From UHGV virus genome UHGV-0106586: a DNA stretch of 61,990 nucleotides. The stretch is one strand, 5' to 3'. Of this stretch, positions 19,671 to 61,990 are shown one piece after another. This DNA comes from a virus. Each line of letters opens with the position of its first letter. Position 1 is the first letter of the stretch. Made by a program: the position numbers and the translations under genes. The notes below the pieces were generated by a model, which was not told the DNA's origin, did not search any database, and saw nothing but the letters and a program-made list of their open reading frames with translations.

Positions 19671-19683
19671 ATAGTTATTAAAA

Positions 19684-37600: not shown

Positions 37601-37606
37601 AAGTTG

Positions 37607-37839: not shown

Positions 37840-37877
37840 CAACGTAATACAAAATTTAATATAACTTTGAGGTCATT

Positions 37878-38261: not shown

Positions 38262-38262
38262 T

Positions 38263-38767: not shown

Positions 38768-38768
38768 T

Positions 38769-39128: not shown

Positions 39129-39141
39129 TAGGTGATTAACT

Positions 39142-40459: not shown

Positions 40460-40460
40460 T

Positions 40461-41360: not shown

Positions 41361-41364
41361 AACA

Positions 41365-41392
41365 AAAAAGGCTCCCGTAAAAAGGAGCCTTA
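41365..41392. terminator. bidirectional hairpin terminator between convergent genes (ggctcc-cgtaaaaa-ggagcc)
   Basis: Stem 41370-41375 / 41384-41389 with A/T runs on both sides. Confidence 0.55.
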
Positions 41393-41396
41393 AACT

Positions 41397-41768
41397 TCAC
41401 TTTTCAGTATTCTTTGTGTTCTTTTCAGTAATAGCTTGGAGGGCTGATACTGATTGAGCCAGATTATTCACACTATCAGAGAATTTATCAAGAGTCTTAG
41501 TAAGTTTTGCGTTCTCACCCTTAACATTCTCTAACTGGACTTTCTGGTTCTCCATCCCTAGCTGAAGCAACCTCATATCAGACTGTAAATCACGGATAGC
41601 TGAATAATTACTTTTGGAATAATTATCCAACTGCTGTAACTTTGTTGTGATAGACACTTCTTGTTTACCATCCGAAACTTGCATGGTGGTATACATCCCA
41701 ATAACACTAAAAATACCAACTACAATTGCACCAATATTATTTTTAAAAGCTTCATCTAGCCACTTCAT
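41397..41768 (-). CDS. membrane-anchored coiled-coil protein (123 aa)
   Basis: N-terminal hydrophobic IGAIVVGIFSVIGMY followed by Q/L-rich helical region. Confidence 0.4.
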   Translation of the reverse strand: MKWLDEAFKNNIGAIVVGIFSVIGMYTTMQVSDGKQEVSITTKLQQLDNYSKSNYSAIRDLQSDMRLLQLGMENQKVQLENVKGENAKLTKTLDKFSDSVNNLAQSVSALQAITEKNTKNTEK

Positions 41769-41962
41769 TTATTCTCCCCCTTAAAAGCTTTTTCTAAGTT
41801 ATCTACGAACTCATCATCAATAGGTGTGTCTGTTTTACTCGCAAGGTATCTTGCAAGCTTAAAGAACACTTTCTCAATCATGTATTCACTTAGAAGGGAT
41901 AAAATGAGTTTCCAGAAGAAGCTACCTAGATTTTTTAGAAGAATTGCTAGGATTGTAGGCAT
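41765..41962 (-). CDS. small hydrophobic protein (65 aa)
   Basis: ORF in track; hydrophobic N-terminal region. Confidence 0.35.
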   Translation of the reverse strand: MPTILAILLKNLGSFFWKLILSLLSEYMIEKVFFKLARYLASKTDTPIDDEFVDNLEKAFKGENK

Positions 41963-42041
41963 TTAATCACCTCATCAGCCAAGATGGTGAGAATACCCAT
42001 AAAGAATATTAACACCATCTTAACAATCAGTCAACAAGGGA

Positions 42042-44387
42042 TTAAGCAGTTCTTACCCAAGCCATTAACTTGTAGAACTGGTTAGTAACACTAAATGCTG
42101 AACCAGAACCTGTACCACCAGTGTTACCGCTAACTGTGTGGCTATGAGCACCAATACCTACTGAGTGAGCATGTCCCCCAGCAGATGCAGCAGAACCACT
42201 TACAGAGTGAGTGTGAACACCATCACTTTCTGTACAACCAACGTGCGTTTGAGCAGAGTTTGATGAAGCAACACGACCAGATGGTACGTTAGCGTTATCA
42301 CCTTGTGAGATTCTATGTGCGTGCCCACCACCAGAGTTAGCAGTACCACTTACAGAGTGGGTGTGAGCACCAGTGTTGTTAGTGTTCTTTGTACCATAAT
42401 CAAAAGATGAAGTGGTAGCAGAGAAACTATGGGTATGTGATGGTAAGTTACCAACAGCTAACGTCACAGAATCTGAACCACCAGTTGTAGCAACATCTGA
42501 ACCGTTTGCTGCTGCGATTCTGATAGTTCTACCAATACCATTGTTCAGGTACGTCCAAGTTAACCCAGGAAGTGCTGTATTAGGGTCAACATTACTATTA
42601 AACCACGTTACAATACCTACTGGGTAGATTTTATTCAGGTCTGTAGAGTCACTAATTGCTGTTGCAATCTTCTGGTCAGTCTCTGCTTTAGTATATGCAC
42701 CAATATCTGAAGGAGATGGTTTAAATGCCGTTGAATACAACTGCGCCTCTCCAACATATGCTCCATCTGCTCCATAAGCATATGTGAAGACATCAAGACC
42801 TTTGGACCCGTATGTAAAACCAATACCTCTGGCATGAGCAATACCAGCAGCATGTGCTACATGGATGGCTAAATCTTTCAGACCCTGCTCAATACCGTTA
42901 TTTCTTACAAACCCTGAATAATCTTTGTTGAATGATGCTGAGTCATCCAATCTATTAGTTGTCCTTGTCATTAAAGATTGGTTTAACAGTTTTGTTTTTA
43001 AGAAATATCTAGCATCCAAGTTAGACCAATCAGAAGGTTGAACTTGACCAGTGATTCTTACTGTTTTGTTCAGTAAGAAGTCATCCTTCATGTAAATGGT
43101 AGTAGCAGTCCTGTCATTGTGGATAGTGAACCTTTCTGGGTTGCTTGGTTCCCCATTACCAATATACCACCTTCTAACACCATCAGCATTAAAACCAGCA
43201 AAGTATAACCCATTGTCTTGTGCAGTATTCCTTAGTTGTAACAATAAGCCATTTTGATTAATAATCTGTGCAGACCTGAAATTGTTTACATCACTCAGTT
43301 TAGCAAGATTACTCAAAGTTCCTGCTGGAATATATCTAGAGTCAATGTTAGTCCAATCAGAAGGTTGTACTTGACCATCAATTTGAACTGTTTTGTTCAT
43401 GGCAATAGTGTTACCTAGTGAGACTTGTGTTTTTGTTAGGTAGTTATAGATTTTTAAAATGTTCTCATCACCGTCATTACCAATGTACCACTTATAATTC
43501 CCATCTGACTTTCTTGCTCGAATATATAAAGAGGGAGCAGTGTCCACATTTTGCAGAGTGATGGCTTCAGCATTCTTCTTAGCGATAAAATTAGCGAAAA
43601 TGTTAGTACCAGTAAAAGTATTATTAGCGGTTAACTGTGCAAATCTCTGATTAGCCACTGTCTGAGTGAAGTATCTAGCATCTAAGTTAGCCCAATCAGA
43701 AGGCTGAACTTGACCAGTAATCTGGATAGATTTGTTCACAGAAATTAGGTTATCCAGAAGAGCTAAATACGCACCGGATTTGACATTTTTGATAACAAGA
43801 TTATCTGCACCTCTATTATCATTACCTAGATACCACCTGTTAGTGCCATCTACATCTTGACCACGAATATATAGCGGCATTCCTTGTGTAATGTTCTTAA
43901 CAATAAGAGCTTCATTATCAGAGAGGATAGCTTGAGTACCTCTAAATGTGTTATTTACAGCTAATCTTGCATATCTTGCATCATTCTCTTCATTAGTTCT
44001 CATCCCAAGTTCATTAGGGCTTGGCTTATTCAGAGTATGATAAACAGTTGCCGACCTTGAAGCATCTGCAATAGTTAGTTTAAGGCCATTTGCGTTAATT
44101 TTAAAAGTCTTTAAAACATCCCCAATATTAATCTCAGAAGAGCCTGTTGGGTCAAACACTACCTTACCACCATAAAGTAACTTAACAATCCCTAAGTCAC
44201 CTGTCATAGTACTACCAGCAATCTGAACAAATCTTTCAAGTTTAAAAGATGCTAAGAAATCTCGATAGGTCATTCGACGGTCTTCATCACCCAGCATTTC
44301 AGGTCTCTTTTTAACTCTGACATGAAGAAGGTCGTCTGAACGGATTGTGTCGATTGAGTTTAATTCACTCAACTTGTAATCTGCCAT
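42042..44387 (-). CDS. tail fibre protein with tandem ~100-aa internal repeats and His-x-His-rich C-terminal region
   Basis: Repeated WY(I/L)GN and GQVQPSDW-N-D-RYF modules; C-terminal HTHS/HAHR/HSHT motifs; ends ...AWVRTA. Confidence 0.7.
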   Translation of the reverse strand: MADYKLSELNSIDTIRSDDLLHVRVKKRPEMLGDEDRRMTYRDFLASFKLERFVQIAGSTMTGDLGIVKLLYGGKVVFDPTGSSEINIGDVLKTFKINANGLKLTIADASRSATVYHTLNKPSPNELGMRTNEENDARYARLAVNNTFRGTQAILSDNEALIVKNITQGMPLYIRGQDVDGTNRWYLGNDNRGADNLVIKNVKSGAYLALLDNLISVNKSIQITGQVQPSDWANLDARYFTQTVANQRFAQLTANNTFTGTNIFANFIAKKNAEAITLQNVDTAPSLYIRARKSDGNYKWYIGNDGDENILKIYNYLTKTQVSLGNTIAMNKTVQIDGQVQPSDWTNIDSRYIPAGTLSNLAKLSDVNNFRSAQIINQNGLLLQLRNTAQDNGLYFAGFNADGVRRWYIGNGEPSNPERFTIHNDRTATTIYMKDDFLLNKTVRITGQVQPSDWSNLDARYFLKTKLLNQSLMTRTTNRLDDSASFNKDYSGFVRNNGIEQGLKDLAIHVAHAAGIAHARGIGFTYGSKGLDVFTYAYGADGAYVGEAQLYSTAFKPSPSDIGAYTKAETDQKIATAISDSTDLNKIYPVGIVTWFNSNVDPNTALPGLTWTYLNNGIGRTIRIAAANGSDVATTGGSDSVTLAVGNLPSHTHSFSATTSSFDYGTKNTNNTGAHTHSVSGTANSGGGHAHRISQGDNANVPSGRVASSNSAQTHVGCTESDGVHTHSVSGSAASAGGHAHSVGIGAHSHTVSGNTGGTGSGSAFSVTNQFYKLMAWVRTA

Positions 44388-44433
44388 TATAAATTTTCCT
44401 CTTAAAAGGGGCTATAAAGCCCCTGTAAAGAAA

Positions 44434-45621
44434 TTAAGCTGTTCTCTGCCATACATACAGCACGAAGGATGGCTGTTCAATGTTGAAAGCTTGCCCACCA
44501 CCAACACTGTTCGTGTTTCCACTATGCGTATGCTCAGAAGAAGAAACTGTCACAGTACCATTGTGCGTATGTGAACCAATACCAACTGTGTGACTGTGAG
44601 CACCAATACCCACCGTATGGTTGTGGTCACCAGTTGTGTTAGTGGTAACACTGAAAGAGTGGGTGTGCTCACCAGCGACTTCACAGACAGCATCTGCTGA
44701 GTACCATGATTGGTCATTCCTTGTAGACCAAACCATTGCAGGTCTTTCCGATAGACCACCACCTGCTTCATAGGTCAATCTGTGGTTGTGAGCACCAGCA
44801 GCACTTGTTGACCCACTGCCAACGTGATTATGGTTACCAGTTGTGTTGGTGGTCTTTGTCCCATAGTCAAAAGAGTTGGTAGTCTTAGTCCCATAATCAA
44901 AAGCTGAAATTGACACAGTTGCATTATGAGTGTGACCACCACCACTAAGAGACACAGAGTGAGAGTGTTGAGGCATGTTATTAACTGACAAAGTGACAGT
45001 CGAAGCACCAAATACAGAACCTGCTGGCCTTGTATCAGAGTCATAACCAACCAATGCCCTACCTTTTGAAACCAACTCCCAAGTACCTCCACAAATTAAG
45101 TATGTAGAAGGGTTTGCAGAGTTCATAGAAAGATGGATAGTACCTACTGGATAAGAAGCCTGAACAGCCTTGTACAAGTTATTTACTGCTCTTGCTGTAG
45201 CATACTTATCTGCATCTTCATTATACAGGTTAGATGTTGTCCAGTTCTGAACATTACTTAAACCAACCTGTGCCTTAGTTGTATTGTGTGGGTTACTCTT
45301 GTCCTTGATATGTTGTTGGACAAGATTATTAACCTCTTCTGAAGACATAATCTGTAGATTTGCTCTTGCCTCAGCTACATTAACAATATCTGATAAGTTA
45401 TTTGCAGCAACTAACTGAAGAGCATTAATAACATTATCTAAACCAATCTGTGTCTTAGTAACACCATGAGGGTTATTTCTTAGGCTTGAGTGTGGAGCAA
45501 GTAATTGCTCAAGAGTACACCTCTTATCCTCAATACCCTGCTTAAGATGGAAGATATCACTAAGGTCAATTGGTAAGGCTGCTTGAGGCAAGGCACTAAT
45601 TTGAATTTCACCTACTGCCAT
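44434..45621 (-). CDS. second tail fibre / receptor-binding protein with fibre repeats and His-x-His-rich C-terminus
   Basis: NPHGVTKTQIGLDNV and NPHNTTKAQVGLSNV fibre-repeat motifs; YPVGTIHL... collar-like region; HxH motifs; ends ...VWQRTA. Confidence 0.7.
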   Translation of the reverse strand: MAVGEIQISALPQAALPIDLSDIFHLKQGIEDKRCTLEQLLAPHSSLRNNPHGVTKTQIGLDNVINALQLVAANNLSDIVNVAEARANLQIMSSEEVNNLVQQHIKDKSNPHNTTKAQVGLSNVQNWTTSNLYNEDADKYATARAVNNLYKAVQASYPVGTIHLSMNSANPSTYLICGGTWELVSKGRALVGYDSDTRPAGSVFGASTVTLSVNNMPQHSHSVSLSGGGHTHNATVSISAFDYGTKTTNSFDYGTKTTNTTGNHNHVGSGSTSAAGAHNHRLTYEAGGGLSERPAMVWSTRNDQSWYSADAVCEVAGEHTHSFSVTTNTTGDHNHTVGIGAHSHTVGIGSHTHNGTVTVSSSEHTHSGNTNSVGGGQAFNIEQPSFVLYVWQRTA

Positions 45622-45623
45622 TA

Positions 45624-51445
<5,822 letters not shown>

Positions 51446-51486
51446 TCATTTTTAACCAAGCCTTTGATATATAAGTATTTTCTCTG

Positions 51487-51556
51487 TTAAGCGTGAGCTA
51501 CGTAAAAAATAATTTTTGGTGGGTATATCTGTTCAGAAGATTTCACGTAGCATTCG
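51487..51556 (-). promoter_or_regulatory. conserved ~70-bp element upstream of gene 50615..51406 (copy 1 of 2)
   Basis: Shares blocks ttaagcgtg, tacgtaaa, gtgggtat, atttcacgtagca with 53631-53700. Confidence 0.4.
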
Positions 51557-51563
51557 ACTATTA

Positions 51564-53612
51564 TCAATCATCTTCTGGGAATGATGAACTTAATAGCGTA
51601 GCTTCTGCGTATTGGTCGTAGATATTACTGCTAAAGGTCATAAAGCTGGTTTCATCTGGTTTAATGGCAACTTCACCACCAAGTGAAACTTTCACAGGCT
51701 CCTGAATACGTTTGCTCAAAGCACTAATTTCATCTCTCAGGCTTTGGATATCCGTATTCGTTAATGCCGCATCTTGTCTCATGGTGATTAATTCTGGATG
51801 CTGGAAGTTAGCAAGATTCATAGCTGCACTATTAAACCAACCTTTCACATCGTCCATTGTAAATACTGGCTTAAGTCCAGACTCTTTAGCCAGCTCTGGT
51901 AATTTAGCTTGTGCTTCCATTCGTTCAGGTGTAGAGGCTAATCTTTCATAACCTGCATAGATAGCACTACCAGCTAATAGCATATTCCCAAGATTAAACC
52001 TTGATGGTTTCCCGTTCTTTCTATTCACGTTATCCGCTGTAGTATCAGCGACCTGACCTAATCTTGTGATAGCAGTCATAAGCCCGTAAATACTTCTGGT
52101 TACACCAACAACTTTATTTACAGCAATAACACCAGCCAAGACTTTTAAACTATTAATCAAGCCAGAACCTAAAGCATCAACAACTTTCTTTTGTTCATCG
52201 GTTAAACCACGATAAGCCAATGTCACCTCATCAAAGAACGCCCTTACCCTGTAACTAATATCAGTCAGGTTATCGACACCGTGTGACATAGAAGTCATGA
52301 GATTACCAAGACTTTCACCTAATGTTTTACCACTCCCACCAAGACTATTTAAAAGCGTTGTTAAGCTTCTTGTGAAATCTTGAAGACCATTTTCAGAACC
52401 TCTGAAGATATCCGTTAGTGAGTTGTTCCAAGTATTCTTTAAGTTCCCTAACATCGTCTGCGTAGAGTCCTGAATAGCTTTCCAGCCACCTCTGGAATTA
52501 ATCTGTGAACCAAGTTCTTTAGCAAACTTAGGGAGTGCATCAGAGGCTTTAACATCACCATTTTTCATCTTATCGAAAAGCTGTTTTTCAGTCAGACCTA
52601 AAGCCTTTGCAAATGCCTGAGTAGCACCCGGTAAAGCTTCAGATAGTTGCCCCTTAAGCTCTTCAGCCATCACCTGACCCTTAGAAGCCATCTGCGATAC
52701 TGCGGTTAATGCTCTTTGAATCTGCTCATCTGAACGACCCATTAAACGGGCATATCCAGTTAAGTTTTTAAATAATTCCTCTGAGCCTTCAAGACCCATC
52801 GTATTTTTTGCAGATGCACCAAATGAAGCAAACTGTGCTTGTGTTTCGGTTGTGTCCATACCAGTAATTTGAGTTAAATCTTGAATGAACTTTTTGACCT
52901 GTGTACTTTGGTCACCGAATACGAAATCAATACTTCTTTCCGATGATGCACGTTGAAGGCCAACTTCCATAATCTTCTGATAAGCGGATAGTACAGCCTG
53001 AAAGCTGATAAATGCACCTGCTGTTTTAACTGCTGCTGAACTCAAACTATCAAGACTATTAGCTGCTCTGTCACCGTTAATGCTGGTGGATGTATGACCT
53101 TTAGCTTTAGCAATTGCTTCTCTGACTGAAGCATTTAACTGAGCCAGCTTCTCATTGAATTTTGAATTATCCATCTGACCAGCTTTAGCAGATAGCCCGT
53201 AAAACTGAGATTTGATGTATTTCTGCAAAACAGGGTCAAAGCCCTTTAACTTGCTCATATTCGCTGAGTAAGCTGCTGTGATTGCTCTGTTTCCGCTAAT
53301 TCGTGGCTGTCTTGGTTGTTTTGGAGGATTAATAGCGTCATTAACCTGACTTGTGAAACGGAAAGCTTTTGTGCTTCTTGCTCTCTGTTCAATCTTGTCA
53401 AAAGCCTTATTAAACTTCCTTTCAAGTTGCCCTAAAGAACTTGTCAAATTACTATCAAGCTGTTTTGTATTAATCCTGAAACCTTTATTTAGGTTCTTTT
53501 CAATTCTTTGTGCTGACTGCAAAGCTGCCTTTTCAACTCTTTGCAAGCCTTTAACAACGTTTTCACTGAAGCCTAATTCAACGATAAAACTATCAACTGT
53601 AAATTTGCTCAT
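51564..53612 (-). CDS. tail tape measure protein
   Basis: 682 aa, alpha-helical low-complexity composition, TMP-like core QVMAEELKGQLSEALPGA, position upstream of baseplate genes. Confidence 0.7.
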   Translation of the reverse strand: MSKFTVDSFIVELGFSENVVKGLQRVEKAALQSAQRIEKNLNKGFRINTKQLDSNLTSSLGQLERKFNKAFDKIEQRARSTKAFRFTSQVNDAINPPKQPRQPRISGNRAITAAYSANMSKLKGFDPVLQKYIKSQFYGLSAKAGQMDNSKFNEKLAQLNASVREAIAKAKGHTSTSINGDRAANSLDSLSSAAVKTAGAFISFQAVLSAYQKIMEVGLQRASSERSIDFVFGDQSTQVKKFIQDLTQITGMDTTETQAQFASFGASAKNTMGLEGSEELFKNLTGYARLMGRSDEQIQRALTAVSQMASKGQVMAEELKGQLSEALPGATQAFAKALGLTEKQLFDKMKNGDVKASDALPKFAKELGSQINSRGGWKAIQDSTQTMLGNLKNTWNNSLTDIFRGSENGLQDFTRSLTTLLNSLGGSGKTLGESLGNLMTSMSHGVDNLTDISYRVRAFFDEVTLAYRGLTDEQKKVVDALGSGLINSLKVLAGVIAVNKVVGVTRSIYGLMTAITRLGQVADTTADNVNRKNGKPSRFNLGNMLLAGSAIYAGYERLASTPERMEAQAKLPELAKESGLKPVFTMDDVKGWFNSAAMNLANFQHPELITMRQDAALTNTDIQSLRDEISALSKRIQEPVKVSLGGEVAIKPDETSFMTFSSNIYDQYAEATLLSSSFPEDD

Positions 53613-53630
53613 TGTTCATATTTCACCTCT

Positions 53631-53700
53631 TTAAGCGTGTTGTACGTAAATTCTATTTTTCAGTGTGGGTATTAGCTTTACAGATTTCACGTAGCACACA
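53631..53700 (-). promoter_or_regulatory. conserved ~70-bp element upstream of the tape measure gene (copy 2 of 2)
   Basis: Same conserved blocks as 51487-51556 in the same order and spacing. Confidence 0.4.
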
Positions 53701-53770
53701 TACAAAAAAGGGAGAAACTACCGATGTCACTCGATAATCTCTCCCGTAGATTTTTACCCAACCAATCTTT

Positions 53771-53974
53771 TTACCCAACCAGATAATAATTGCCATCTTC
53801 ACCAACAATCTGACAATCACTTGGTAATTTATCAAGACACCATTTAGCGATTCTTCTGATTCTGTTATTTTGCTTAGAGGTGGATGATTTGATTCGTTTT
53901 GGTTTGTTGGGTTGTTCTTTCAGTCGTTCACTAATTGCCTTGATGAGTTCATAGCGTTCTGTTAAATCAATCAT
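53771..53974 (-). CDS. hypothetical protein (67 aa), N-terminus paralogous to the next ORF
   Basis: MIDLTERYELIK vs MNDLTERDKRIK. Confidence 0.3.
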   Translation of the reverse strand: MIDLTERYELIKAISERLKEQPNKPKRIKSSTSKQNNRIRRIAKWCLDKLPSDCQIVGEDGNYYLVG

Positions 53975-53999
53975 TCACCACCTCCTTTTTAATTCGATT

Positions 54000-54308
54000 T
54001 TAATCTAAGTAGTGTATACACTCGACACCGCGTTCATTCTTTTGAATTTCATAACGTAGTGAAAGACCAGTTTGATAATACACAGTATCAAGCTTATTTA
54101 TCTTATCCTTGAGTTCGATAAGAAGTCGCGTTAAATCATCCCGACCATCACACTTTAGTTCGGCAAGAGGCTTTTCGTCCATACGACCAATAAGATATTC
54201 AGTGACCTCCTGAATATCACCAAGAGTCGTTTTAATTTCATTGAACCTATCTTCAAAAGGTTCCATCACCCCTTTAATTCTTTTATCACGTTCTGTTAAA
54301 TCATTCAT
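54000..54308 (-). CDS. hypothetical protein (102 aa)
   Basis: ORF in track. Confidence 0.4.
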   Translation of the reverse strand: MNDLTERDKRIKGVMEPFEDRFNEIKTTLGDIQEVTEYLIGRMDEKPLAELKCDGRDDLTRLLIELKDKINKLDTVYYQTGLSLRYEIQKNERGVECIHYLD

Positions 54309-54316
54309 TAATCACC

Positions 54317-55027
54317 TCAAATAGCCTTTGCATATTTCTGAGAAATCTTCATTAACTGCTCAATATCGGCTTGCATAGCAATCTTCTTCTGTGATTCATA
54401 TTCACTAACAAGTTCTTTCATAGCCTGAAGCTCTCTTGAGAGATACAACTTAACATTTTCAAGTTGCTTGTTACGTGATGCCAAGATGTTCTGTCTAGCA
54501 AGTTCACAGAGTTCTTCATCGCTCTTATTAGTCATATAAATAAATTGACCAGCACCCCTTGAAGCTTTAACCATCTTCACAATTCGATATCCGTCAGGAA
54601 GATTATTAATCACGTCTGGGATATTCTCAGGAAAAGTACCAAAACCATCATTATCTTCGTATTGGTAATAGACAAATGGTTTCTGTGACAATTCATCCTG
54701 AATCTCAAATTCTGACGGCTCAATAGCTGATTGCATCAGGGTAACTTTGCTGTAAGCGTCATCAAGTTTAATACGCTGTGCTTTTAACTGTGGGTAATAT
54801 TCACGCTCAAGATTAAATAGTGCTTCACTTTTGCAGATATCTGGCATTTCTTGAGGCTCAGGAGACACAAAGGTAATTTCCTTTGGTGACATCTTTAACG
54901 ATTGCTCAAGCTTAATTCTTTCATCGTGTTCTTTACGCTGAATAGTGATAGCTGGATGTTCAGTCTGTGGCGACCAGTCACCGAAGCTATCAACCTTTCT
55001 GCCATTAATGTAAATATCATTTGTCAT
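54317..55027 (-). CDS. hypothetical protein (236 aa)
   Basis: ORF with ATG and GAGGAAAT RBS. Confidence 0.45.
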   Translation of the reverse strand: MTNDIYINGRKVDSFGDWSPQTEHPAITIQRKEHDERIKLEQSLKMSPKEITFVSPEPQEMPDICKSEALFNLEREYYPQLKAQRIKLDDAYSKVTLMQSAIEPSEFEIQDELSQKPFVYYQYEDNDGFGTFPENIPDVINNLPDGYRIVKMVKASRGAGQFIYMTNKSDEELCELARQNILASRNKQLENVKLYLSRELQAMKELVSEYESQKKIAMQADIEQLMKISQKYAKAI

Positions 55028-55553
55028 TATAATTTCCTCTAAGTGTGATTATTTCTTAATAGAGCACCTTCAACGCCAATACACTTAGAAGATGACTTAA
55101 CGATTTATTAAAGATGCTCTATAAAGAAAAGCCCTAAACATAGGTTCATCCTCATCTGTGAAGGGCTTTGGAGGTTTGCTTTAACGTTAACGAAGTTTCA
55201 GGAAAAAGTTCTGTTTGAAAACTCTTAAAGAAACGCCCTAACTCATGATTAGGGCAAAGCTGTAAAGGGTTCAATGAATGAATGATTAAGCACTTTTTGA
55301 GATAGCCTATCTAGTGTGGGCTAAATAGGCCATGACGAAAAGCATTGCACCTTTCCAACTCAGAATATAGTTATCATCGATGTAGAGACGATTAATATTT
55401 TAATTCAAGGAGAATTGCTCTCCCTATATATACAATTATGTCATGCTCAAGGTTATTTGTCAACAGCTTTTTAACAGATTGGTAACATTTATACTTTAAT
55501 AGATGCACCTGCAATCATACCAATCAATACAAAACAGATAATCACCAATTCCA

Positions 55554-55877
55554 TTAATGCACCACCTTCGAATCCGTCACCAAAATATTGTCAGCGTACA
55601 AAATTGCTATAGCTGCCTTGAGATATCTTTCAGGGCTAATACTGTATTTGTTCGTTTGCTCGATAACCAATCTTTTCATGTTGCTGTCTATAATTGGTAG
55701 CATCATTCGAGGCTCGTTAAACTCCACCGACTGAATAAAGTCTTCAATTACTTCTGAGTTATCAGCCATTAGCCTTAACAGCCTGTCAAAGTCAATGCTA
55801 ACACCTACATCAGTGAAAGCCTGAATCATCATAGCGGTGTCGTTATCAACGAAAATCTGTAATGGGTAATTGTTCAT
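55554..55877 (-). CDS. hypothetical protein (107 aa from ATG 55877)
   Basis: ATG with AAAGGAGA RBS. Confidence 0.45.
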   Translation of the reverse strand: MNNYPLQIFVDNDTAMMIQAFTDVGVSIDFDRLLRLMADNSEVIEDFIQSVEFNEPRMMLPIIDSNMKRLVIEQTNKYSISPERYLKAAIAILYADNILVTDSKVVH

Positions 55878-56032
55878 TTTTAAAATCTCCTTTTTACCAG
55901 ACCTCCTCAATCGCTCTGTAACGAGCTAAACAGTCTTTTTCAGGGGTAGCCTGTACAGTGGTATTACCCACCCTAAAATAAGATAGTTTTTTGCGTTAGA
56001 ATGCGATTGAGAGCGCCTGAGAAGCTATTTTT

Positions 56033-56320
56033 CTAATTTCTCTTAAAGTCTCGGACTTGCATAAGATTTTTTGGTCTGGTATCGGCTCTGTTACCATTTC
56101 GATGGATAATTTGCTTGTTGGATTGATAGCCATGATAAAGGAACCAGACAACATATTTCACGTAGAAAGTATATCGGCCTATATTAAATGTTTTGTTGCC
56201 GTAGTCGTCGGTATTTATCGTGACTGACTCTCCATCAGACCAGCACAGGGAATCACTGGATTCATCATAGATAAGGTGTTCTGTAAAATATCGTCTAACA
56301 TCTTCATGCCAAGGTTTCAT
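56033..56320 (-). CDS. truncated/degenerate HNH-like protein (N-terminal HNH region only, no AP2 domain)
   Basis: LIYDESSDSLCW...FYVKYVVWFLYHGYQ...IIHRNGNRADTRPKNL parallels the N-terminal halves of the intact HNH-AP2 proteins but with substituted catalytic positions. Confidence 0.4.
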   Translation of the reverse strand: MKPWHEDVRRYFTEHLIYDESSDSLCWSDGESVTINTDDYGNKTFNIGRYTFYVKYVVWFLYHGYQSNKQIIHRNGNRADTRPKNLMQVRDFKRN

Positions 56321-56532
56321 AAAACCTCCTCACCCCAATAACCTAATTCAATCTTGTGACGCTCAAACCATTCCGGTTTAACTGCTGTTTTCAGTACTTC
56401 ATTTGGGCCAATGGCTTTAATGAAAATATCTTTTGAGTTATGGATGTCACCGAATCCGTTTCCCTTAATCAGGAGGTCGGAGATGTGGCGAATCATTTTA
56501 TCCGTGTGGTATTCAAAGGTAACGCATAGCAT
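56317..56532 (-). CDS. hypothetical protein (71 aa)
   Basis: ORF in track. Confidence 0.35.
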   Translation of the reverse strand: MLCVTFEYHTDKMIRHISDLLIKGNGFGDIHNSKDIFIKAIGPNEVLKTAVKPEWFERHKIELGYWGEEVL

Positions 56533-56810
56533 TAAACCTCCATCGCTAACTTGTGAATCTTAAGACTCAATAGACGGGCAATATCAATCTTAAAGCCGTT
56601 AAGTGCCTTCAAAGTATCTAAAGCGTCCTGAGTAATTCGGATGTGCTTACGACCTTTAGAGACTGGATATTTAAGTAAATCCGACTCAGTGACCTCTTTA
56701 GCAATTGCAAGCTGCATTACAGTTTGATGAGGCAAGTTAGTAGCTCGTTTAATTCTGGTAAGCTCGTTAAAAGCTTCCTCTGAAATACGGGTTAATGTGT
56801 GTTTATTCAT
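56532..56810 (-). CDS. hypothetical protein (92 aa)
   Basis: ORF in track. Confidence 0.4.
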   Translation of the reverse strand: MNKHTLTRISEEAFNELTRIKRATNLPHQTVMQLAIAKEVTESDLLKYPVSKGRKHIRITQDALDTLKALNGFKIDIARLLSLKIHKLAMEV

Positions 56811-57368
56811 TTAAAATTCCTCTGTAACTAAATACGGGTCAAACTCGAAATCTGGTTGCTCGTTTTCCATTGGCTCAATATTCCCAACGGCAATATGATG
56901 TTCAACAATACCAATTAGCTTTGCACACATTACAGCAAGCAAAGCGCAATATTTATCGCTTGGTAATTCATGGCTAAGTCTGGTTGCTTGTCTTTGAAGA
57001 TAATTTGTCACGCTGGCTGCGTTAATTTCGTCAAGATTCTTTAGAAGATAAAATAGTTTTTTGTTGTATTTCGGGTGGCCTTCACTTCTACAGAATCCAA
57101 TGAAAATATCATCAAGCTTACTTGGTAGTTGCTCGTAAGAATCAAAGTTAGCCAGATAATTTTTAATAGTGTTCTGGGTGCTCTTTCTGGTTGGCATAAA
57201 TCTGTCTCGTGGCGTAATGCTACGAATTACTTCGTCAATGCCTTTGCGTTCTTTCTTGGTGAGCTTGGGTAGTTCGTAGCTGGTTGGGTTGTTTGTGTAA
57301 GCGTAGGAGTTGTGCTTGTTACGTTGTCTCGATGCCTGAAGCATCGCTCTAAATTCTGCGTCTCTCAT
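56811..57368 (-). CDS. hypothetical protein (185 aa)
   Basis: ORF in track; first gene of a minus-strand operon. Confidence 0.45.
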   Translation of the reverse strand: MRDAEFRAMLQASRQRNKHNSYAYTNNPTSYELPKLTKKERKGIDEVIRSITPRDRFMPTRKSTQNTIKNYLANFDSYEQLPSKLDDIFIGFCRSEGHPKYNKKLFYLLKNLDEINAASVTNYLQRQATRLSHELPSDKYCALLAVMCAKLIGIVEHHIAVGNIEPMENEQPDFEFDPYLVTEEF

Positions 57369-57419
57369 TCATGTTCCGACCCTCATAAGATGTTATTATT
57401 CTGTTAACTTATATATACA

Positions 57420-57448
57420 ATACTAGCATTTTCAAAGACTAATGTCAA
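57420..57448 (-). promoter_or_regulatory. sigma70-like promoter for minus-strand operon 57368..55554 (-35 TTGACA, 17-bp spacer, -10 TAGTAT)
   Basis: Read from reverse complement of 57420-57448. Confidence 0.35.
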
Positions 57449-57473
57449 GTATTTTTTAACATTTTATTAACAT

Positions 57474-57486
57474 CTGTGGTATAATG
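57474..57486 (+). promoter_or_regulatory. extended -10 promoter-like element (TGGTATAAT), plus strand
   Basis: TGnTATAAT seen at 57478-57486; no good -35. Confidence 0.35.
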
Positions 57487-57612
57487 GTTCTATGGGGAGA
57501 GTAAAATATAAAGGCGTGGCTATGAGGTTTATTCGATAGGGGTTGGTACAAGCCCAACTAACCGAATCAACTATGTATGTCACATGGTATTGCATTGCAC
57601 ACAGGAAATTTA

Positions 57613-57789
57613 ATGGTAAATCTCCCTCCTGAACTGGGGTCACCTGATGTATGGGCTGGTGGAGGTATCGGGCTGATTGCAGGTCTGTTACTCCGCTACG
57701 TCCTCGTCAGAGTGCTTGTTGTCTTTAAACTGTTCGGTCGTACATGGACGCTTGACCTTAAGGATAATGACCACACGGACCCCCGTTAA
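57613..57789 (+). CDS. small single-pass membrane protein candidate (58 aa), more GC-rich than surroundings
   Basis: AGGAAA RBS then ATG; GGGIGLIAGLLLRYVLVRVLVVF hydrophobic helix. Confidence 0.3.
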   Translation: MVNLPPELGSPDVWAGGGIGLIAGLLLRYVLVRVLVVFKLFGRTWTLDLKDNDHTDPR

Positions 57790-58840
57790 ACCCCCTTCAA
57801 AACCCCTATACCATCTCGTACAGGGGTATCTTTAGCATTTTGTGCTATCTATTAAAAAATAGCTTGACAGAACCAGAAAGCTGTATCTATCAAGTATTCA
57901 CCTCTCTGACAGTGATTTCTAAAAGTTCTTATTTTTCAATAAGTTGTAATTAGCCATATATAGTAGCTGTTCAGCACCTTCACAGATGACTTCAAGCCTT
58001 CTTAGCTATCCACTAAGCGGGAGAAGAGCGATAACCCCAGAGAGGGAAGCTCCCTTCTAATTGGTATTGTTATGAGGATGCTTCATCCGAATCATCTACC
58101 AATCCCTAAACCGACTTTCTTAACCAGCCCTTTACGTTATTCGTTCACAGTGTTGATAAGTGGTTTTGCCCTCTGTTTCTGTTATCATCGGGCTTACCTT
58201 ATCAGGGCTTTGAAATGCCCTGTAACTCCCCTCTTAACGGGAGAGAAAGAACATAGTGACCCCAAGCGAAGCGCCCCTCTAAAAAGATTTTTTAGCTACT
58301 TTGTTTAAAAGCACATCAAACGATACATTTTATTGATTTAGGTCAAAGACAAAAGCATTGACAAAATGGTAAGATTGTTCACATGACCTTACTTAACAGA
58401 TTCTTAAGAGCTTTGAAACAGCCTGTCTAACAAGGTCACTACCTCTGGTCTTATCGTTCCCTCTCTTCTTGGTAGTTCTGTTAAGTATTTTTCAGTTTTA
58501 TTCTTAAGATAATTGTTAAGATAGAACCTACCTTCGGTTTCATGGTTCTCTTCCTCCCGTTAAACAATTCTTCCTAACTATCTACATAATCACTACCAAG
58601 AATCTTACAAGGTAATATCCAGACCTCTTATAGTTGACCTGATACAGAAACATTACAGACATGCTCTCTAGGTTCTGTGTAGTTCCCTTGTTGGGAATAG
58701 ATGCTCCTACAATAAGAGCATCATTAATCTATATACTCCTCTTCCGAGAACTTAATGTTTTTTTAATGTATATCAATCATTATCCAAAATATGATATGAA
58801 GTTTCTTGGTAGTATTACATCAACAAGTTAATTGAAATAA

Positions 58841-59284
58841 GGAATATTATTTAGAAATGGTGTAAAAATCGAGGGTTCACTTGTAAATCCTAAACCAAGA
58901 CAATACCTGGCTTTTGGTTGTCGGATTAATGGTAAGTTCAGAATACTTAAGGTGCATCAGGTTATTTTCTATCTATATCATGGTAAACAAGCTAAACTAT
59001 AGATTGACCATATAGATGGTGACCCGCTAAATAATGCTATTAGCAATCTTCGCGAGGTTACCAAAGAGCAGAATCAGGCAAACATGATACCCAGAAAGAA
59101 AACAAAATCAGGTTACAAGGGGGTACACCCAAGAGTGGATAACAAGGGGTTCTGGGCTACAATACGCTGTAATGGAAAATCTCATTATCTGGGTCAGTTT
59201 AATACAGCAGAAGAAGCTGCAAAAGCCTATGATGCTGCATCACTGGAATTGCATGGTGAATATGGACACAGGAATTTTAGCTGA
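58841..59284 (+). pseudogene. HNH-AP2 homing endonuclease pseudogene: no start codon for the N-terminal part, in-frame TAG at 59000-59002, AP2-domain remnant retained as ORF 59084..59284
   Basis: Hand translation ...VHQVIFYLYHGKQAKL*IDHIDGDPLNNAISNLRE...SGYKGVHPRVDNKGFWATIRCNGKSHYLGQFNTAEEAAKAY parallels the intact copy at 34184..34687. Confidence 0.6.
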
Positions 59285-60237
59285 TAGTTAATAAAGACCT
59301 GACATAAACTTGTCGATAGGTCTGATTAAAGTTTATACAGTGATTTTTCATCTTCTAATTTTTTTATAAAAATCGTAGTAGCCTCTCTACATTCCCCTTC
59401 ACCGATAATCTTCAAAAATATCTACACAGTTGATTCGGTAGAATCTACCTCATGATTGATGGCTGTTAAGTACCCCAGATTCACGATATAGCACCCCCTT
59501 TGCAAAAGCAGTTAAAATATCTATAACCAATTATTGACTTTCTTTATAGCATCTGTTAACTCCACATCAAGAAACCTTTATCACACTTCAAAGCATCTAT
59601 CAAGAAGATTTCACCTATCAATAGATGTAACATTTTATAGTTCTGTGAAGTCCTATCCAGTTTTCTCTGTAACAGACACAAACTTCTGTGACCTTATGTA
59701 TCAATGACTTACAAGACATGCTCTCAAGGTGCTGTATAGCCTCTTATCTTCAAATACACAAAACCCTTATAAATCAGTACTGATACGTATACAGTTCGTT
59801 TTTAACATAATAGCTGTTTTACGCACTAATCGTGTTCTACATGAAATCTGTATAGATATTAAGGTGTCTGTAAGTGATTTTTTAAGAGGAGCTACGAAGA
59901 ACTATAACCATCACCTCCTAACTTTCACATGGGAAACTGTTAAGCAGCTTGATAGTCACTTTGAGGGAATATTGATAGTGACCAACTGCATAGATAGCGT
60001 TATATAGTCCTGTATATAGCACTTTTCTAGGAGTCGAGAGAGGGACGACTAACACGATACAGTTTACCCTGAAAAGAGACTTCACAGATTCTTTATATAT
60101 TTCAATAAGTTATGCTAAAAAGGGACTATATCAATACTGCATAGAATCTGTGTAAAACTGCTTAGATAGTGCATAAATACACCGTTGAATTGCATAATCA
60201 TTCACTGATATTGTCCTGTTATTAACAGGTATGTTCT

Positions 60238-60316
60238 CATAGTTGATTCGGATGTTCTAGGAATCATCCTCATAGTTGATTCGGATGTTCTAGGAATCAT
60301 CCTCATAGTTGATTTA
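60238..60316. repeat. 33-bp tandem direct repeat (catagttgattcggatgttctaggaatcatcct), 2.4 copies, with internal dyad symmetry; ~85 bp upstream of the recombinase-like gene
   Basis: Copies at 60238-60270, 60271-60303 and a partial copy at 60304-60316; related sequence at 59429-59464. Confidence 0.7.
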
Positions 60317-60399
60317 GACCTTGATGATTTTTATTAGACACGTTTAAATACACTACCTAAAGCGATACAATCTAGGTATCAGTTTTGAGGTGGTAAACA

Positions 60400-61659
60400 A
60401 TGAAACGTGTCATTTCATACATTCGTTTCTCATCAGAGAAGCAAGCTAAAGGCGACTCACTCCGCAGACAATCTAAGATGGTCACTGATTGGCTTAAGGC
60501 TCATCCTGAGTACTACCTTGACCAAGATTTATCTTTTCGTGATTTAGGTGTGAGTGGATTCACTGGTAAGCACTTGAAAGGTGGCTTAGGTGACTTCTTA
60601 ACCGCTATCGAGAAAGGGCTTGTTAAAGCTGGTATCAAAGTTTCTAAACGTTGTCCTGCATGGCTTAAGCTTAATGATGACCGTAAAAGCTTCTCTGTGA
60701 TACCTGAGAAAGTGGAGACTGTGAAGAGGTGCTTTCAGCTACGGTTAGAGGGTAAGTCTATCTGGGAGATTGTCAGAACTCTTAATGCTGAAGGTCACCA
60801 GACGCTTAACCAGTACAAAGCAGGTAAGTTTGGTCAAACATCTGTTCAAGACCTTTTGAAGAATCGCTCTGTAATTGGTTACTTCACACCTAAAGGCTGT
60901 GAGGAGATTGCAGGTTATTACCCGTCTGTAATTGATGAAACAACATTCTACAAAGTTCAACAACTATCACATTCTCGTTACGGTAGAAAACCTGCTTCAG
61001 ATAAACCATTGAGTGTGAATCTCTTTAAAGGTGTTATCCGTTGTTCTGAATGTGGTCATGCTTTGATTATCACAGGCTTTAGCGATACAAGAAACGGGAT
61101 TTATCGTTGTCCTCTTCGTAATGAAAACCGTTGTAGTGCTAAAGGACTTTCACGTAAGCAAACCGATGGTACATTGCTTGCCCTGCTATCTCGTCTTGAC
61201 CGATTTGATAGCGATATGACGAATACCATAGACACACTGAAGCTACACCGTGAACACATCTCAAGCAATATTGAAAAGCTGGTACAGCTATCACTTGAAA
61301 TTGAAGACTTGTCCGCTATTACCAGCAAACTAAGACAACTAAAGAATGAGCTATCACAAGTTGATGCGGATATCGAGAAGGAGACACAACGCCTTAAATC
61401 TATTGATGTGGGTTGTTTGTCTGATTGTGACTTGACTACAAAGGCGGGAAGGATTGAAGCACAACTGATAATCAAAAGTGCTGTTAAAGAGGTCGTTTTA
61501 AATACTGCTAAACGTCGCTGTAAAGTAACTTTTCACAACGGTAAAGCAATCACCTTACCAATAACAGAAAACCCCTCAGACAACGTTACAGAGGCTATAC
61601 AGTCGCTTTCTGAAGTCACTGAGAGGGGTTTAATAGATGTTGATGAGGTTATCATATAG
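60400..61659 (+). CDS. serine-recombinase-like protein (resolvase-type N-terminal motifs, recombinase domain, zinc ribbon) with apparently truncated catalytic domain
   Basis: YIRFSSEKQ and DLGVSG motifs; recombinase-domain-like middle; CSECGH...YRCPLRNENRC zinc ribbon; no DRLxR-type motif found by eye. Confidence 0.6.
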   Translation: MKRVISYIRFSSEKQAKGDSLRRQSKMVTDWLKAHPEYYLDQDLSFRDLGVSGFTGKHLKGGLGDFLTAIEKGLVKAGIKVSKRCPAWLKLNDDRKSFSVIPEKVETVKRCFQLRLEGKSIWEIVRTLNAEGHQTLNQYKAGKFGQTSVQDLLKNRSVIGYFTPKGCEEIAGYYPSVIDETTFYKVQQLSHSRYGRKPASDKPLSVNLFKGVIRCSECGHALIITGFSDTRNGIYRCPLRNENRCSAKGLSRKQTDGTLLALLSRLDRFDSDMTNTIDTLKLHREHISSNIEKLVQLSLEIEDLSAITSKLRQLKNELSQVDADIEKETQRLKSIDVGCLSDCDLTTKAGRIEAQLIIKSAVKEVVLNTAKRRCKVTFHNGKAITLPITENPSDNVTEAIQSLSEVTERGLIDVDEVII

Positions 61660-61673
61660 TTGAGATTCTATCG

Positions 61674-61990
61674 TCAGTAGCGCTTGTTAGGATTCACAGA
61701 AAGCTTCTTCAAAGTACTACCTGTACCAGCATTATTAAGCACCTTTGAAGCTTGCTCATTAGCGGCATCTGAGAAGGTGCTTTTTCCGTTCTCAACTTTG
61801 ACACTTCTACCACAATTGATACGGGCTTGAAGTTGCTCATTAGTAAGTTCACTCGTAGAGCGATTATATAGCTCCTGACACATCAACATACCGTTACCTA
61901 AGCTTGTTGTAGTGTTCCCTGTATTCTTCTTAGAAGTAGCACCACCGTCATTTGTAGTAGAAGTCTTTCCAGTGGCTGCTGAAATATCAG
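61674..61990 (-). CDS. partial CDS (3' portion; 5' end lies beyond the window) paralogous to tail gene 50615..51406
   Basis: Open frame runs to the window edge; 61891-61990 is ~88% identical to 50850-50949 (last ~60 nt identical); C-terminus ...LSVNPNKRY vs ...[11 protein letters not shown]. Confidence 0.5.

What the first reader, a model, noticed from the sequence alone, without database searches (positions are those of the whole stretch)
51487..51556. Conserved ~70-bp element present on both sides of the tape-measure gene (second copy 53631-53700)
The two copies share ordered blocks ttaagcgtg, tacgtaaa, attttt, gtgggtat and atttcacgtagca at ~75% overall identity. On the minus strand each sits directly upstream of a late tail gene (tape measure; gene 50615..51406). 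The element contains imperfect inverted ACGT-centred half-sites. It is a candidate late promoter or activator-binding site, or a recombination-prone repeat bracketing the tape-measure gene.
Basis: seen in the sequence. Interest (0 to 1): 0.5.

Follow-up and report, generated by a model that had tools for sequence, protein, structure and literature searches.

The report
Hairpin repeats flanking a satellite tape-measure gene
The two ~70-base repeats are real, but they are not phage late promoters: they are copies of a widespread, apparently undescribed 53-base hairpin-forming palindrome, and they sit inside an E. coli satellite-like island that has recombined into a Felix O1-type phage genome.

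Summary
Two direct copies (51487-51556 and 53631-53700) bracket a tape-measure ORF, far beyond chance.

Window 50848-61990 is a complete, circularly permuted copy of an 11.5-kb E. coli chromosomal island. It carries a large serine recombinase, an HNH gene, an AP2 gene, and its own tape-measure and Dit-like genes. It is joined to a Felixounavirus genome through the homologous Dit-like gene.

Each repeat has a 53-nt palindromic core (gCG-CTACGTGAAATCTG-N25-CAGATTTCACGTAG-CGc). A covariance model finds no copy in the 51 kb of phage sequence or in ordinary Felixounavirus tail modules. No sigma-70 promoter or intrinsic terminator lies within either copy. The late-promoter reading therefore fails its own refutation test.

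The same palindrome occurs across Gammaproteobacteria. It also occurs once in phage P1, upstream of cra-cre, and as a motif-like palindrome with a degenerate 3' arm in T7. It lies on the 5' side of Cre/Xer-like tyrosine recombinase genes in 18 of 18 such neighbourhoods. It matches no Rfam family.

My best reading is a cis-acting hairpin element punctuating the island's tail operon. This has low confidence. A DNA-level protein or recombinase site and a selfish mobile palindrome remain open. The two copies do exchange sequence between themselves, but no genome shows deletion of the gene between them.

The parts
51487..51556 (-). Copy A of the repeat. The 53-nt palindromic core is at 51498-51550 (5' arm CTACGTGAAAT, 3' arm TTTTTTACGTAG), followed by the 3' flank CTCACGCTTAACAGAG.
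   Evidence: covariance model 45.8 bits, E 2.5e-11; RNA fold has an 11-bp stem, -13.8 kcal/mol, z -2.0
53631..53700 (-). Copy B of the repeat. The 53-nt core is at 53642-53694, followed by the 3' flank CAACACGCTTAAAGAGG, which runs into the RBS of the tape-measure ORF.
   Evidence: covariance model 27.5 bits, E 6.7e-6; RNA fold -15.8 kcal/mol, z -1.8
51564..53612 (-). Island-borne tape-measure protein gene (TMP', 682 aa), bracketed by the two copies.
   Evidence: Pfam TMP_3 9e-18; 31% identical to the Felixounavirus TMP, with a near-identical N-terminal ~30 aa; annotated 'tape measure protein' in E. coli RefSeq
50615..51406 (-). Dit-like baseplate gene downstream of copy A. It is a hybrid: its 5' end is island-like (middle uninformative) and its 3' third is phage-like.
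   Evidence: 80% identical to L009 8062..8856, which hits Pfam Dit_like 2.8e-20; block identities
53710..53745 (-). Terminator-like hairpin (15 pairs followed by TTTTTT) immediately upstream of copy B.
53771..54308 (-). Two small paralogous ORFs (67 and 102 aa). They occupy the position of the tail assembly chaperones in ordinary Felixounaviruses.
   Evidence: synteny with L001; repeat D16. The chaperone role is inferred from position only.
59831..59892 (+). Possible degenerate third copy (5' arm CTACATGAAATCTG, poor 3' arm) in the island's non-coding DNA, about 0.5 kb upstream of the recombinase gene.
   Evidence: covariance model 12.3 bits, E 0.2; the same site is conserved in E. coli L159 at 19640-19701
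50848..61990 (.). The inserted E. coli island, circularly permuted. It contains both repeat copies.
   Evidence: collinear with L159 10460->20135 joined to 8632->10561 at 95-99% identity; precise attP at about 60314-60340

Best explanation
The two repeats are copies of a ~53-nt hairpin-forming palindromic element. The element belongs to a family that is widespread in Gammaproteobacteria and their phages. Here it is embedded in a ~75-nt unit that has been duplicated or converted between the two boundaries of the island's tape-measure cistron.

I propose the following mechanism. Both copies are transcribed as part of the island's minus-strand tail operon (chaperone-like genes, terminator, copy B, TMP', copy A, Dit-like gene). 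Each folds into a 10-13-bp clamp stem that includes a G.U pair possible only on this strand. The hairpins act as intercistronic punctuation. They would serve as structural barriers or processing points that uncouple the amount or stability of the TMP' message from its neighbours, much as REP-type palindromes or phage intercistronic hairpins do. Under this reading they are not promoters.

Shown:
- family membership;
- hairpin potential;
- strong conservation relative to neighbouring sequence;
- absence of promoter or terminator consensus;
- absence from the phage's own genes;
- sequence exchange between the copies.

Inferred:
- that they act in RNA;
- what they do there.
For: - Family: the same arms at the same 53-nt length, with unrelated interiors, occur in more than 120 genome loci, in P1 and, with a degenerate 3' arm, in T7.
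- Pairing is selected. Inner stem pairs show compensatory changes. Family-wide, 49 cells changed on both sides against 33.6 in shuffles (0 of 500 shuffles reach it), and pairing collapses when the partner is slid.
- In 14 distinct island copies, the core wobble at stem pair 7-47 is always G.U or G-C on the sense strand and never A.C. Sense-strand folds give z about -2, against -0.3 to -0.4 for the antisense strand.
- Position: copy A starts 11 nt after a stop codon, and copy B ends ~20 nt upstream of an RBS (~28 nt before the ATG). The module 'terminator T-run, ~20 nt, motif, 25-35 nt with RBS, ATG' recurs upstream of Cre-like genes. Twenty chromosomal copies lie within 60 nt of a gene's 3' end.
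- Conservation: the copy A block is 77-86% identical between islands whose adjacent TMP' 3' ends are only 40-50% identical.
- Not a promoter or terminator. No copy in phage DNA.
Against: - Fold z-scores are weak, and the ~30-nt loop is largely unstructured.
- The arm sequence (not just the pairing) is conserved from Pseudomonas to coliphages, and the length is fixed at 53-54 nt. Both point to a sequence-specific protein partner. That is more typical of DNA sites or of ssDNA hairpins than of mRNA stem-loops.
- Orientation relative to the upstream gene is random in chromosomal contexts, 10:9.
- In P1 the annotated -10 of promoter P3cre lies inside one arm. If that promoter is real, the transcript would lack the 5' arm there.
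- The only consistent gene association is with tyrosine recombinase genes, which an mRNA-stability role does not explain.
- No expression data were available.
Confidence: 0.33

Rival explanations
1. DNA-level site. The arms are binding elements for a conserved protein, most plausibly a Xer/Cre-type tyrosine recombinase or a regulator of such genes. They would act on duplex or extruded/folded DNA. Under this reading the two direct copies delimit the tape-measure gene as an exchangeable cassette, analogous to attC-bounded integron cassettes or pdif modules.
For: - The arm sequence is conserved, the length is fixed at 53-54 nt, and one stem position carries a recurrent mismatch.
- In 18 of 18 neighbourhoods with a tyrosine recombinase, the motif is on the 5' side of the gene. 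It lies 25-46 nt from Cre-like genes and 190-360 nt from an Alteromonas Xer-like family, where an SOS box lies in between.
- P1 has exactly one copy, between lox and cra-cre.
- Alteromonas-type loci carry two direct copies 0.75-1.1 kb apart next to the recombinase gene.
- Interior types swap between positions A and B among islands.
Against: - The island encodes a serine recombinase, not a tyrosine one. Its real att core (TGATTTT) is unrelated to the motif.
- No deletion or empty-cassette junction was found in 445 E. coli genomes.
- TMP' mosaic breakpoints are not confined to the repeats.
- The arms do not match the attC R-box consensus, no full 11-6-11 Xer site is present, and the Alteromonas recombinase is far below the integron-integrase cut-off.
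- Many copies have no recombinase nearby, for example downstream of gyrB and in T7.
Confidence: 0.25
2. Selfish mobile palindrome (REP/REPIN- or MITE-like). The element spread into intergenic DNA of the island, and of many other replicons, and was later copied from one side of TMP' to the other. It has no dedicated function for the island, and any hairpin effect is incidental.
For: - It is present in unrelated replicons and taxa in either orientation.
- It is multi-copy in Pseudomonas and Azotobacter, where it sits at the centre of a ~190-bp nested palindrome with its own terminal inverted repeats and variable flanks.
- It lies preferentially just after stop codons, between convergent genes or after terminators.
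- The A/B unit includes a flank of local origin, which shows copying within the island.
Against: - Copy number appears low (one or two) in most loci examined. P1 has one copy and the window has two.
- No target-site duplication or empty site was identified, and no candidate transposase co-occurs consistently.
- Both copies are retained at the same two positions in islands whose TMP' has diverged to ~50%. This argues for selection.
Confidence: 0.22
3. Promoter or activator-binding site. The element would drive helper-dependent (late) transcription of TMP' and of the Dit-like gene.
For: - Copy B follows a strong terminator-like hairpin, so TMP' needs either read-through or a new start within about 90 nt. 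That stretch is essentially the element itself.
- In P1, one arm (TAAAAT) is annotated as the -10 of P3cre.
- Both copies lie upstream of a gene.
Against: - There is no sigma-70-like -35/-10 pair in either copy, and no conserved -35 at fixed spacing across family members.
- No copy precedes any other structural gene of the phage, in the window or in other Felixounaviruses.
- The same element occurs at 3' ends of housekeeping genes and inside MITE-like repeats.
- Arm variants in the window (TGAAAT on the coding strand) lack the critical A at position 2 of the -10 hexamer.
Confidence: 0.1

Closest known systems
REP/BIME-type repetitive extragenic palindromes (and REPIN doublets) of Enterobacteria and Pseudomonas
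   Same: Both are short imperfect palindromes with a conserved stem sequence. Both lie in intergenic DNA just after stop codons or between convergent genes, in either orientation. Both are co-transcribed and can form mRNA hairpins. Both can be multi-copy in some genomes.
   Different: The sequence is different and the length (53 nt) is fixed, with a variable ~25-nt centre. Copy number appears low in most genomes. No RAYT transposase association was seen; the association is with tyrosine recombinase genes instead. The element also occurs in virulent and temperate phages.
Integron attC sites (and, by analogy, pdif-flanked modules of Acinetobacter plasmids)
   Same: Both have conserved inverted ends around a variable centre, with a recurrent non-Watson-Crick position in the stem. 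Both occur as direct copies bracketing a single gene. Both lie next to tyrosine recombinase genes, with an SOS box in the Alteromonas loci.
   Different: The arms do not match RYYYAAC/GTTRRRY, and the length is fixed rather than 57-141 nt. There is no integron integrase (NCBIfam 20.6 bits against a cut-off of 265). There is no evidence of cassette excision, and this island's recombinase is a serine enzyme.
PeSL (promoter-early stem-loop) cassettes of T4-type phages
   Same: Both are short repeated regulatory-looking units at gene boundaries. Both flank individual genes and are associated with modular shuffling.
   Different: PeSLs contain a recognisable early promoter plus a terminator-like stem-loop. 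Neither is present here. This comparison rests on my recollection of Arbiol et al. 2010 and was not tested.
Region between loxP and cra-cre of phage P1 (P3cre/pR1 promoter region)
   Same: It contains a bona fide member of the same palindrome family (55 bits with the model). That copy lies in the same place relative to the downstream RBS as copy B.
   Different: In P1 the element is single-copy and upstream of a recombinase operon. One arm is annotated as a -10 hexamer. No function has been assigned to the palindrome itself in the annotation I could read.
PLE-type satellites of lytic myoviruses (Vibrio cholerae PLE/ICP1). This concerns the context, not the repeat.
   Same: Both are small chromosomal islands with a large serine recombinase and long non-coding stretches. 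Both show homology to parts of a virulent myovirus.
   Different: The host, helper and gene content differ. This island carries tail genes (TMP, Dit-like). Satellite behaviour is inferred, not shown.

Membership tests
Sigma-70 promoter | -35 and -10 hexamers with 16-18 nt spacing | tested here: not met
   The consensus scan of 51300-54400 finds no site in either copy on either strand. No conserved -35 is seen across family members.
Phage late promoter (repeated upstream element of late genes) | Recurrence upstream of several late or structural genes of the same phage | tested here: not met
   The covariance model with filters off finds only the two copies, plus one marginal site, all inside the island. 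It finds none in window 1-50847 and none in L001-L003.
Intrinsic (Rho-independent) terminator | G+C-rich stem-loop followed directly by a T-run | tested here: not met
   Neither copy is reported as a terminator. Only 5 of 130 orientation-instances of the family meet the criteria.
Any Rfam family | Covariance-model match | tested here: not met
   There is no relevant hit at E<=10 in window 51300-53900 or L103 6900-7120, and no gathering-score hit in 18 loci totalling 144 kb.
Integron attC | R''/R' core sites RYYYAAC ... GTTRRRY | tested here: not met
   The arms are CTACGTGAAAT ... ATTTCACGTAG.
Integron attC | Associated integron integrase (IntI) | tested here: not met
   The window has only a serine recombinase. 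The neighbouring Alteromonas recombinase scores 20.6 bits against a cut-off of 265 for TIGR02249.
Integron attC | Recombination of the folded bottom strand; cassette excision | not testable with these tools
   The only indirect test was a search for a TMP' deletion junction, and none was found in 445 E. coli genomes.
REP/REPIN | High copy number per genome with an associated RAYT gene | tested here: inconclusive
   Multi-copy is seen only in Azotobacter and Pseudomonas, as part of a 190-bp element. P1 has one copy and the window has two. Whole bacterial genomes could not be scanned. No RAYT was seen among neighbours apart from one IS200-like TnpA 1.2 kb away in L067.
Large serine recombinase att site | Site at the island junctions sharing the crossover core | tested here: not met
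   attL, attR and attP share the core TGATTTT within ATTTAGACCTTGATGATTTT|TATTAGACACG, which is unrelated to the repeat.
RNase III processing site (T7 type) | About 20 bp or more of dsRNA, usually with an internal loop | tested here: inconclusive
   The stems are 11 bp (copy A) and 8+5 bp (copy B) with a large open loop. The motif-like palindrome in T7 lies downstream of the separate hairpin that I recall, from memory, as the R18.5 site. Cleavage is not testable here.
XerC/XerD (dif-like) site | Two 11-bp arms separated by a 6-8 bp central region | tested here: not met
   The arm CTACGTGAAAT is 8/11 identical to the XerD arm of dif (recalled from memory). No 11-6-11 arrangement is present at either end of the element, by inspection.

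The most novel reading that the evidence does not exclude
The 53-nt palindrome is a folded-DNA (hairpin) recognition site for Xer/Cre-type tyrosine recombinases. That would make it a non-integron analogue of attC. It would mark exchangeable cassettes: the tape-measure gene here, and ORF-free ~1-kb segments next to SOS-controlled recombinases in Alteromonas. It would also have been conserved upstream of cre in P1. The two copies in the window would then be the boundaries of a tape-measure cassette that islands swap to retarget or interfere with helper-phage tails.
Probability: 0.12. Interest if true: 0.85.

Novelty: new variant of a known kind. Interest (0 to 1): 0.6.

Why it matters
The repeat belongs to a conserved element that spans classic model phages (P1, probably T7) and many Gammaproteobacteria. 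I could not find it in Rfam or in the searchable literature. It is tightly linked to Cre/Xer-like recombinase genes. Knowing what binds it would bear on how Cre-type recombinases are controlled or targeted.

Locally, it marks the boundaries of a tape-measure gene carried by what looks like a new E. coli satellite of Felix O1-type phages. That island is captured here as a phage-island cointegrate. This bears on how satellites manipulate helper tails and on how virulent phages pick up host island DNA.

Tried and rejected
1. Sigma-70 promoter and intrinsic terminator scans. Nothing was found in the elements, and the family is not terminator-like.
2. Rfam, three searches, with no family matched.
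3. Literature search for the arm sequence. It returned only an unrelated T7 sgRNA. Searches on Cre-like recombinases and on Felixounavirus satellites returned nothing relevant. The P1 genome paper is not held.
4. T7 RNase III site R18.5. The T7 palindrome lies downstream of the hairpin at the cleavage position that I recall, so they are not the same thing.
5. Deletion of TMP' by recombination between the copies. Zero of 445 E. coli genomes show the junction.
6. Repeats as the exclusive mosaic breakpoints. Rejected, because TMP' is mosaic throughout.
7. Serine-recombinase att site. Rejected, because the att core is elsewhere and unrelated.
8. Integron attC/IntI. Rejected on sequence and on the NCBIfam score.
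9. Orientation bias that would prove an RNA role. None was found in 3'-end contexts.
10. Enrichment of single arms or GTGAAAT heptamers in the island. Only about 2-fold, so not convincing.
11. P1 ParB box A, DnaA box, sigma-54, LexA, IHF and XerD arm resemblances. These were compared from memory and by eye only. None fits the full site architecture.
12. attP junction search in viral contigs. No match.

Full report
**Observation.** The two copies exist where stated. The repeat finder lists them as family D6 (51487-51552 and 53631-53696, 71% identity ungapped). The minus-strand alignment shows the ordered conserved blocks. Composite patterns that match both copies have 0.00 to 0.17 chance matches expected in shuffles. 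Each copy contains an inverted repeat: 5' arm CTACGTGAAAT and 3' arm TTTACGTA(G/C). The arms are the ends of a 53-nt palindrome, at 51498-51550 and 53642-53694.

On the minus strand, copy B lies between a terminator-like hairpin (53745-53710) and the RBS and ATG of a 682-aa ORF (53612..51564). That ORF hits Pfam TMP_3 at 9e-18. Copy A starts 11 nt after this ORF's stop codon and ends 81 nt before ORF 51406..50615.

**Context.** The window is a Felix O1-type phage (Felixounavirus) only up to about 51.4 kb.
- Window 37000-51382 is about 94% identical to many Felixounaviruses.
- Window 51383-61990 has no near match in 50,697 phage records, apart from a few short patches.
- In ordinary Felixounaviruses the chaperone, tape-measure (742 aa) and next gene abut with no spacer, and no element is present.

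The divergent segment is 99.8% identical over window 51383-54400 to a chromosomal element found at 99% identity or better in 113 complete E. coli genomes. Relatives occur in 478 of 5426 genomes.

In strain AR434 this element is an 11.5-kb island inserted in yecE (DUF72). It encodes a 507-aa large serine recombinase, a 'phage baseplate protein' (Dit-like), the tape-measure protein, small hypothetical proteins, an HNH endonuclease and an AP2-domain protein. It also has about 2.5 kb of non-coding DNA.

Window 50848-61990 is collinear with the whole island in circularly permuted order.
- It contains a precise attP (ATTTAGACCTTGATGATTTT|TATTAGACACG), compared with attL and attR in E. coli.
- The recombinase gene carries a 251-nt internal deletion (419 versus 507 aa).

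The Dit-like gene is present twice.
- The left copy has a phage-type 3' third.
- The right copy runs off the window. It has an island-type 3' third and a phage-like middle.

This is what a single homologous crossover between the excised island circle and the phage's Dit gene would produce. An assembler walking through the shared repeat would give the same sequence. The recombinase deletion argues, weakly, for a real cointegrate.

The 'tape measure' of the finding is therefore the island's paralogue. It is 31% identical to the phage protein, with a near-identical N-terminal ~30 residues.

**The element belongs to a large family.** Exact-pattern scans found the same arms at the same spacing in other sequences.
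- Related islands have TMP' flanked by two copies (L004, L009, L010, L013, L017, L029; single sites were recovered in L008 and L034).
- Unrelated phage-like contigs carry it.
- P1-like phages carry it.
- T7-like phages carry a motif-like palindrome with a degenerate 3' arm.

These spanned Pseudomonas, Azotobacter, Alteromonas, Grimontia, Xenorhabdus, Pantoea, Erwinia, Citrobacter, Klebsiella, Shewanella, Aeromonas and others. The length was 53 nt in 73 of 122 instances and 54 nt in 28. Some hits of other lengths are ordinary A/T-tract terminators and are probably chance matches.

The consensus is gCG-CTACGTgAAATcTg-N25-cAgATTTcACGTAG-CGc, with a G/C-rich centre. Inner stem positions show compensatory changes. 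Family-wide pair statistics exceed the shuffled and slid controls. Stem pair 7-47 is frequently G.T or A.C. No Rfam family matches, and the arm sequence is absent from the searchable literature.

I built a covariance model (R1) from 65 instances.
- In the window it finds only copies A and B, plus one marginal, degenerate site at 59831-59892 inside the island. It finds nothing in the 51 kb of phage DNA.
- It finds nothing in three ordinary Felixounavirus tail modules.
- It finds exactly one copy in the whole P1 genome, at nt 113-177 between loxP and cra-cre.

**Contexts elsewhere.**
- In all 18 neighbourhoods containing a tyrosine recombinase gene, the element lies on the 5' side of the gene.
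  - It is 25-46 nt from Cre-like genes of about 300-350 aa, in Xenorhabdus, Pantoea and others.
  - It is 190-360 nt from a 370-440-aa Xer-like family in Alteromonas and relatives.
- The Alteromonas-type loci carry two direct copies 0.75-1.1 kb apart with no ORF of 50-60 aa or more in the loci inspected (L103, L146), and the one locus read (L074) has an SOS-box-like palindrome between the proximal copy and the gene.
- In P1, the -10 annotated for promoter P3cre (TAAAAT, nt 124-129) is part of one arm.
- In T7, the arms enclose the Shine-Dalgarno sequence and AUG of gene 18.5.
- In Grimontia, the element follows gyrB by 11 nt and contains a terminator.
- In Pseudomonas and Azotobacter, it is the centre of a multi-copy ~190-bp nested palindrome.
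- Twenty chromosomal copies lie within 60 nt of a gene's 3' end, with no orientation bias.
- Several Cre-like loci share with copy B the arrangement 'terminator T-run, about 20 nt, element, 25-35 nt containing the RBS, ATG'.

**Behaviour within the island family.** Both positions are occupied in every island for which both were recovered. The copy A block stays 77-86% identical where the adjoining TMP' 3' end is only 40-50% identical.

Two interior/3'-arm sequence types occur at either position, and hybrids exist.
- The window has type 2 at B and type 1 at A.
- L009 has the reverse.
- L008 and L017 carry hybrids.
- The 5' flank, by contrast, is position-specific.

The copies therefore exchange sequence. 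The shared 3' flank (CACGCTTAA-AGAG) aligns at copy B with the chaperone/TMP junction of ordinary Felixounaviruses. The A/B pair thus arose by local copying of a ~75-nt unit, not by two independent insertions.

Even so, no E. coli genome shows TMP' deleted between the copies (0 of 445). TMP' is mosaic along its whole length. In all 14 distinct island copies the core wobble is G.U or G-C on the coding (minus) strand. Sense-strand RNA folds are modestly better than shuffles (z about -2), whereas antisense folds are not.

**Interpretation.** The late-promoter reading is not supported.
- There is no promoter consensus.
- There is no conserved -35.
- No copy precedes any other structural gene.
- The same element occurs at 3' ends of housekeeping genes.

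I commit, with low confidence (about one third), to a hairpin acting in cis in the island's tail transcript as intercistronic punctuation around TMP'.

The main rival, about one quarter, is a DNA-level site for a conserved protein. The conserved arm sequence, the fixed length and the recombinase association all point that way.

A selfish REP/MITE-like palindrome with no dedicated role is about as likely as that rival.

These readings are not mutually exclusive at the family level. None can be settled without transcript mapping, arm mutagenesis or identification of a binding factor.

**Comparison with known kinds.** The element works most like REP-type extragenic palindromes or phage intercistronic hairpins. 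Architecturally it resembles attC sites. It fails the defining tests for promoters, intrinsic terminators, attC/IntI, serine-recombinase att sites and Xer sites. It matches no curated RNA family. I rate it a new variant of a known kind (extragenic hairpin palindromes). The setting, a candidate Felixounavirus satellite captured inside the phage, is unusual and probably new.

Noticed in passing
window 50848-61990: This segment is a complete, circularly permuted copy of an 11.5-kb E. coli island. The island is integrated in yecE in strain AR434, and relatives occur in 478 of 5426 complete E. coli genomes. It is joined to the Felix O1-type phage through duplicated, hybrid Dit-like genes (50615-51406 and 61674->61990). 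This is either a Campbell-type homologous cointegrate or an assembly path. No such insert was found in 50,697 phage records. The island looks like an undescribed satellite of Felixounaviruses that carries its own tape-measure and Dit-like genes.
   Followed up: yes
window 60314-60340: A precise attP of the island (ATTTAGACCTTGATGATTTT|TATTAGACACG, core TGATTTT). It is reconstructed from attL and attR of the E. coli copy, which shows that the excised circle was the recombination partner.
   Followed up: yes
window 60400-61659 (+): The large serine recombinase gene has a 251-nt internal deletion relative to chromosomal copies (419 versus 507 aa). The deletion removes most of the catalytic domain after the active-site serine, so the enzyme is probably inactive.
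   Followed up: partly
window 58051-58108, 58411-58479, 59412-59527: Patches of the island's non-coding DNA are 77-98% identical to a gene-poor region of Felixounaviruses. In several phage records that region lies near the record ends. This may be mimicry of a helper cis-acting site (packaging or replication).
   Followed up: partly
window 60236-60301: A perfect 33-nt tandem repeat (CTCATAGTTGATTCGGATGTTCTAGGAATCATC, two copies plus a partial third) lies just left of attP and upstream of the recombinase gene. It is iteron-like, and its function is unknown.
   Followed up: no
window 53948-53984 and 54282-54318: The starts of the two small ORFs upstream of copy B are 84% identical (repeat D16). 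These are paralogous genes in the position of the tail assembly chaperones.
   Followed up: no
window 741-926: A cluster of 29-34-nt direct repeats (TACCTGCACAATTCTAAAATGA...) spaced 39-84 nt apart at the left end of the window. Not examined.
   Followed up: no
L074 2018-3300; L103 5878-7370; L049, L146, L047, L055, L106: Alteromonas-type loci have two direct copies of the palindrome 0.75-1.1 kb apart with no sizeable ORF in the loci checked (L103, L146). A conserved ~300-nt segment follows the distal copy, and L074, the one locus read, has an SOS-box-like palindrome (TACTGTTTAATTATACAGT) before a Xer-like tyrosine recombinase gene.
   Followed up: partly
L051, L054, L059, L065 and other Pseudomonas/Azotobacter loci: A multi-copy ~190-bp nested palindrome with terminal inverted repeats (CTCAGAGGTTGTGAAAAAATCGA...) carries the 53-nt element at its centre. 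Its flanks often abut stop codons.
   Followed up: partly
L031 385-438 (T7 nt 36884-36937); L033/L160 113-177 (P1 nt 113-177): T7 gene 18.5's Shine-Dalgarno sequence and AUG lie inside a palindrome of the same family. P1 has a single copy between loxP and cra-cre, and one of its arms contains the annotated -10 of P3cre.
   Followed up: partly
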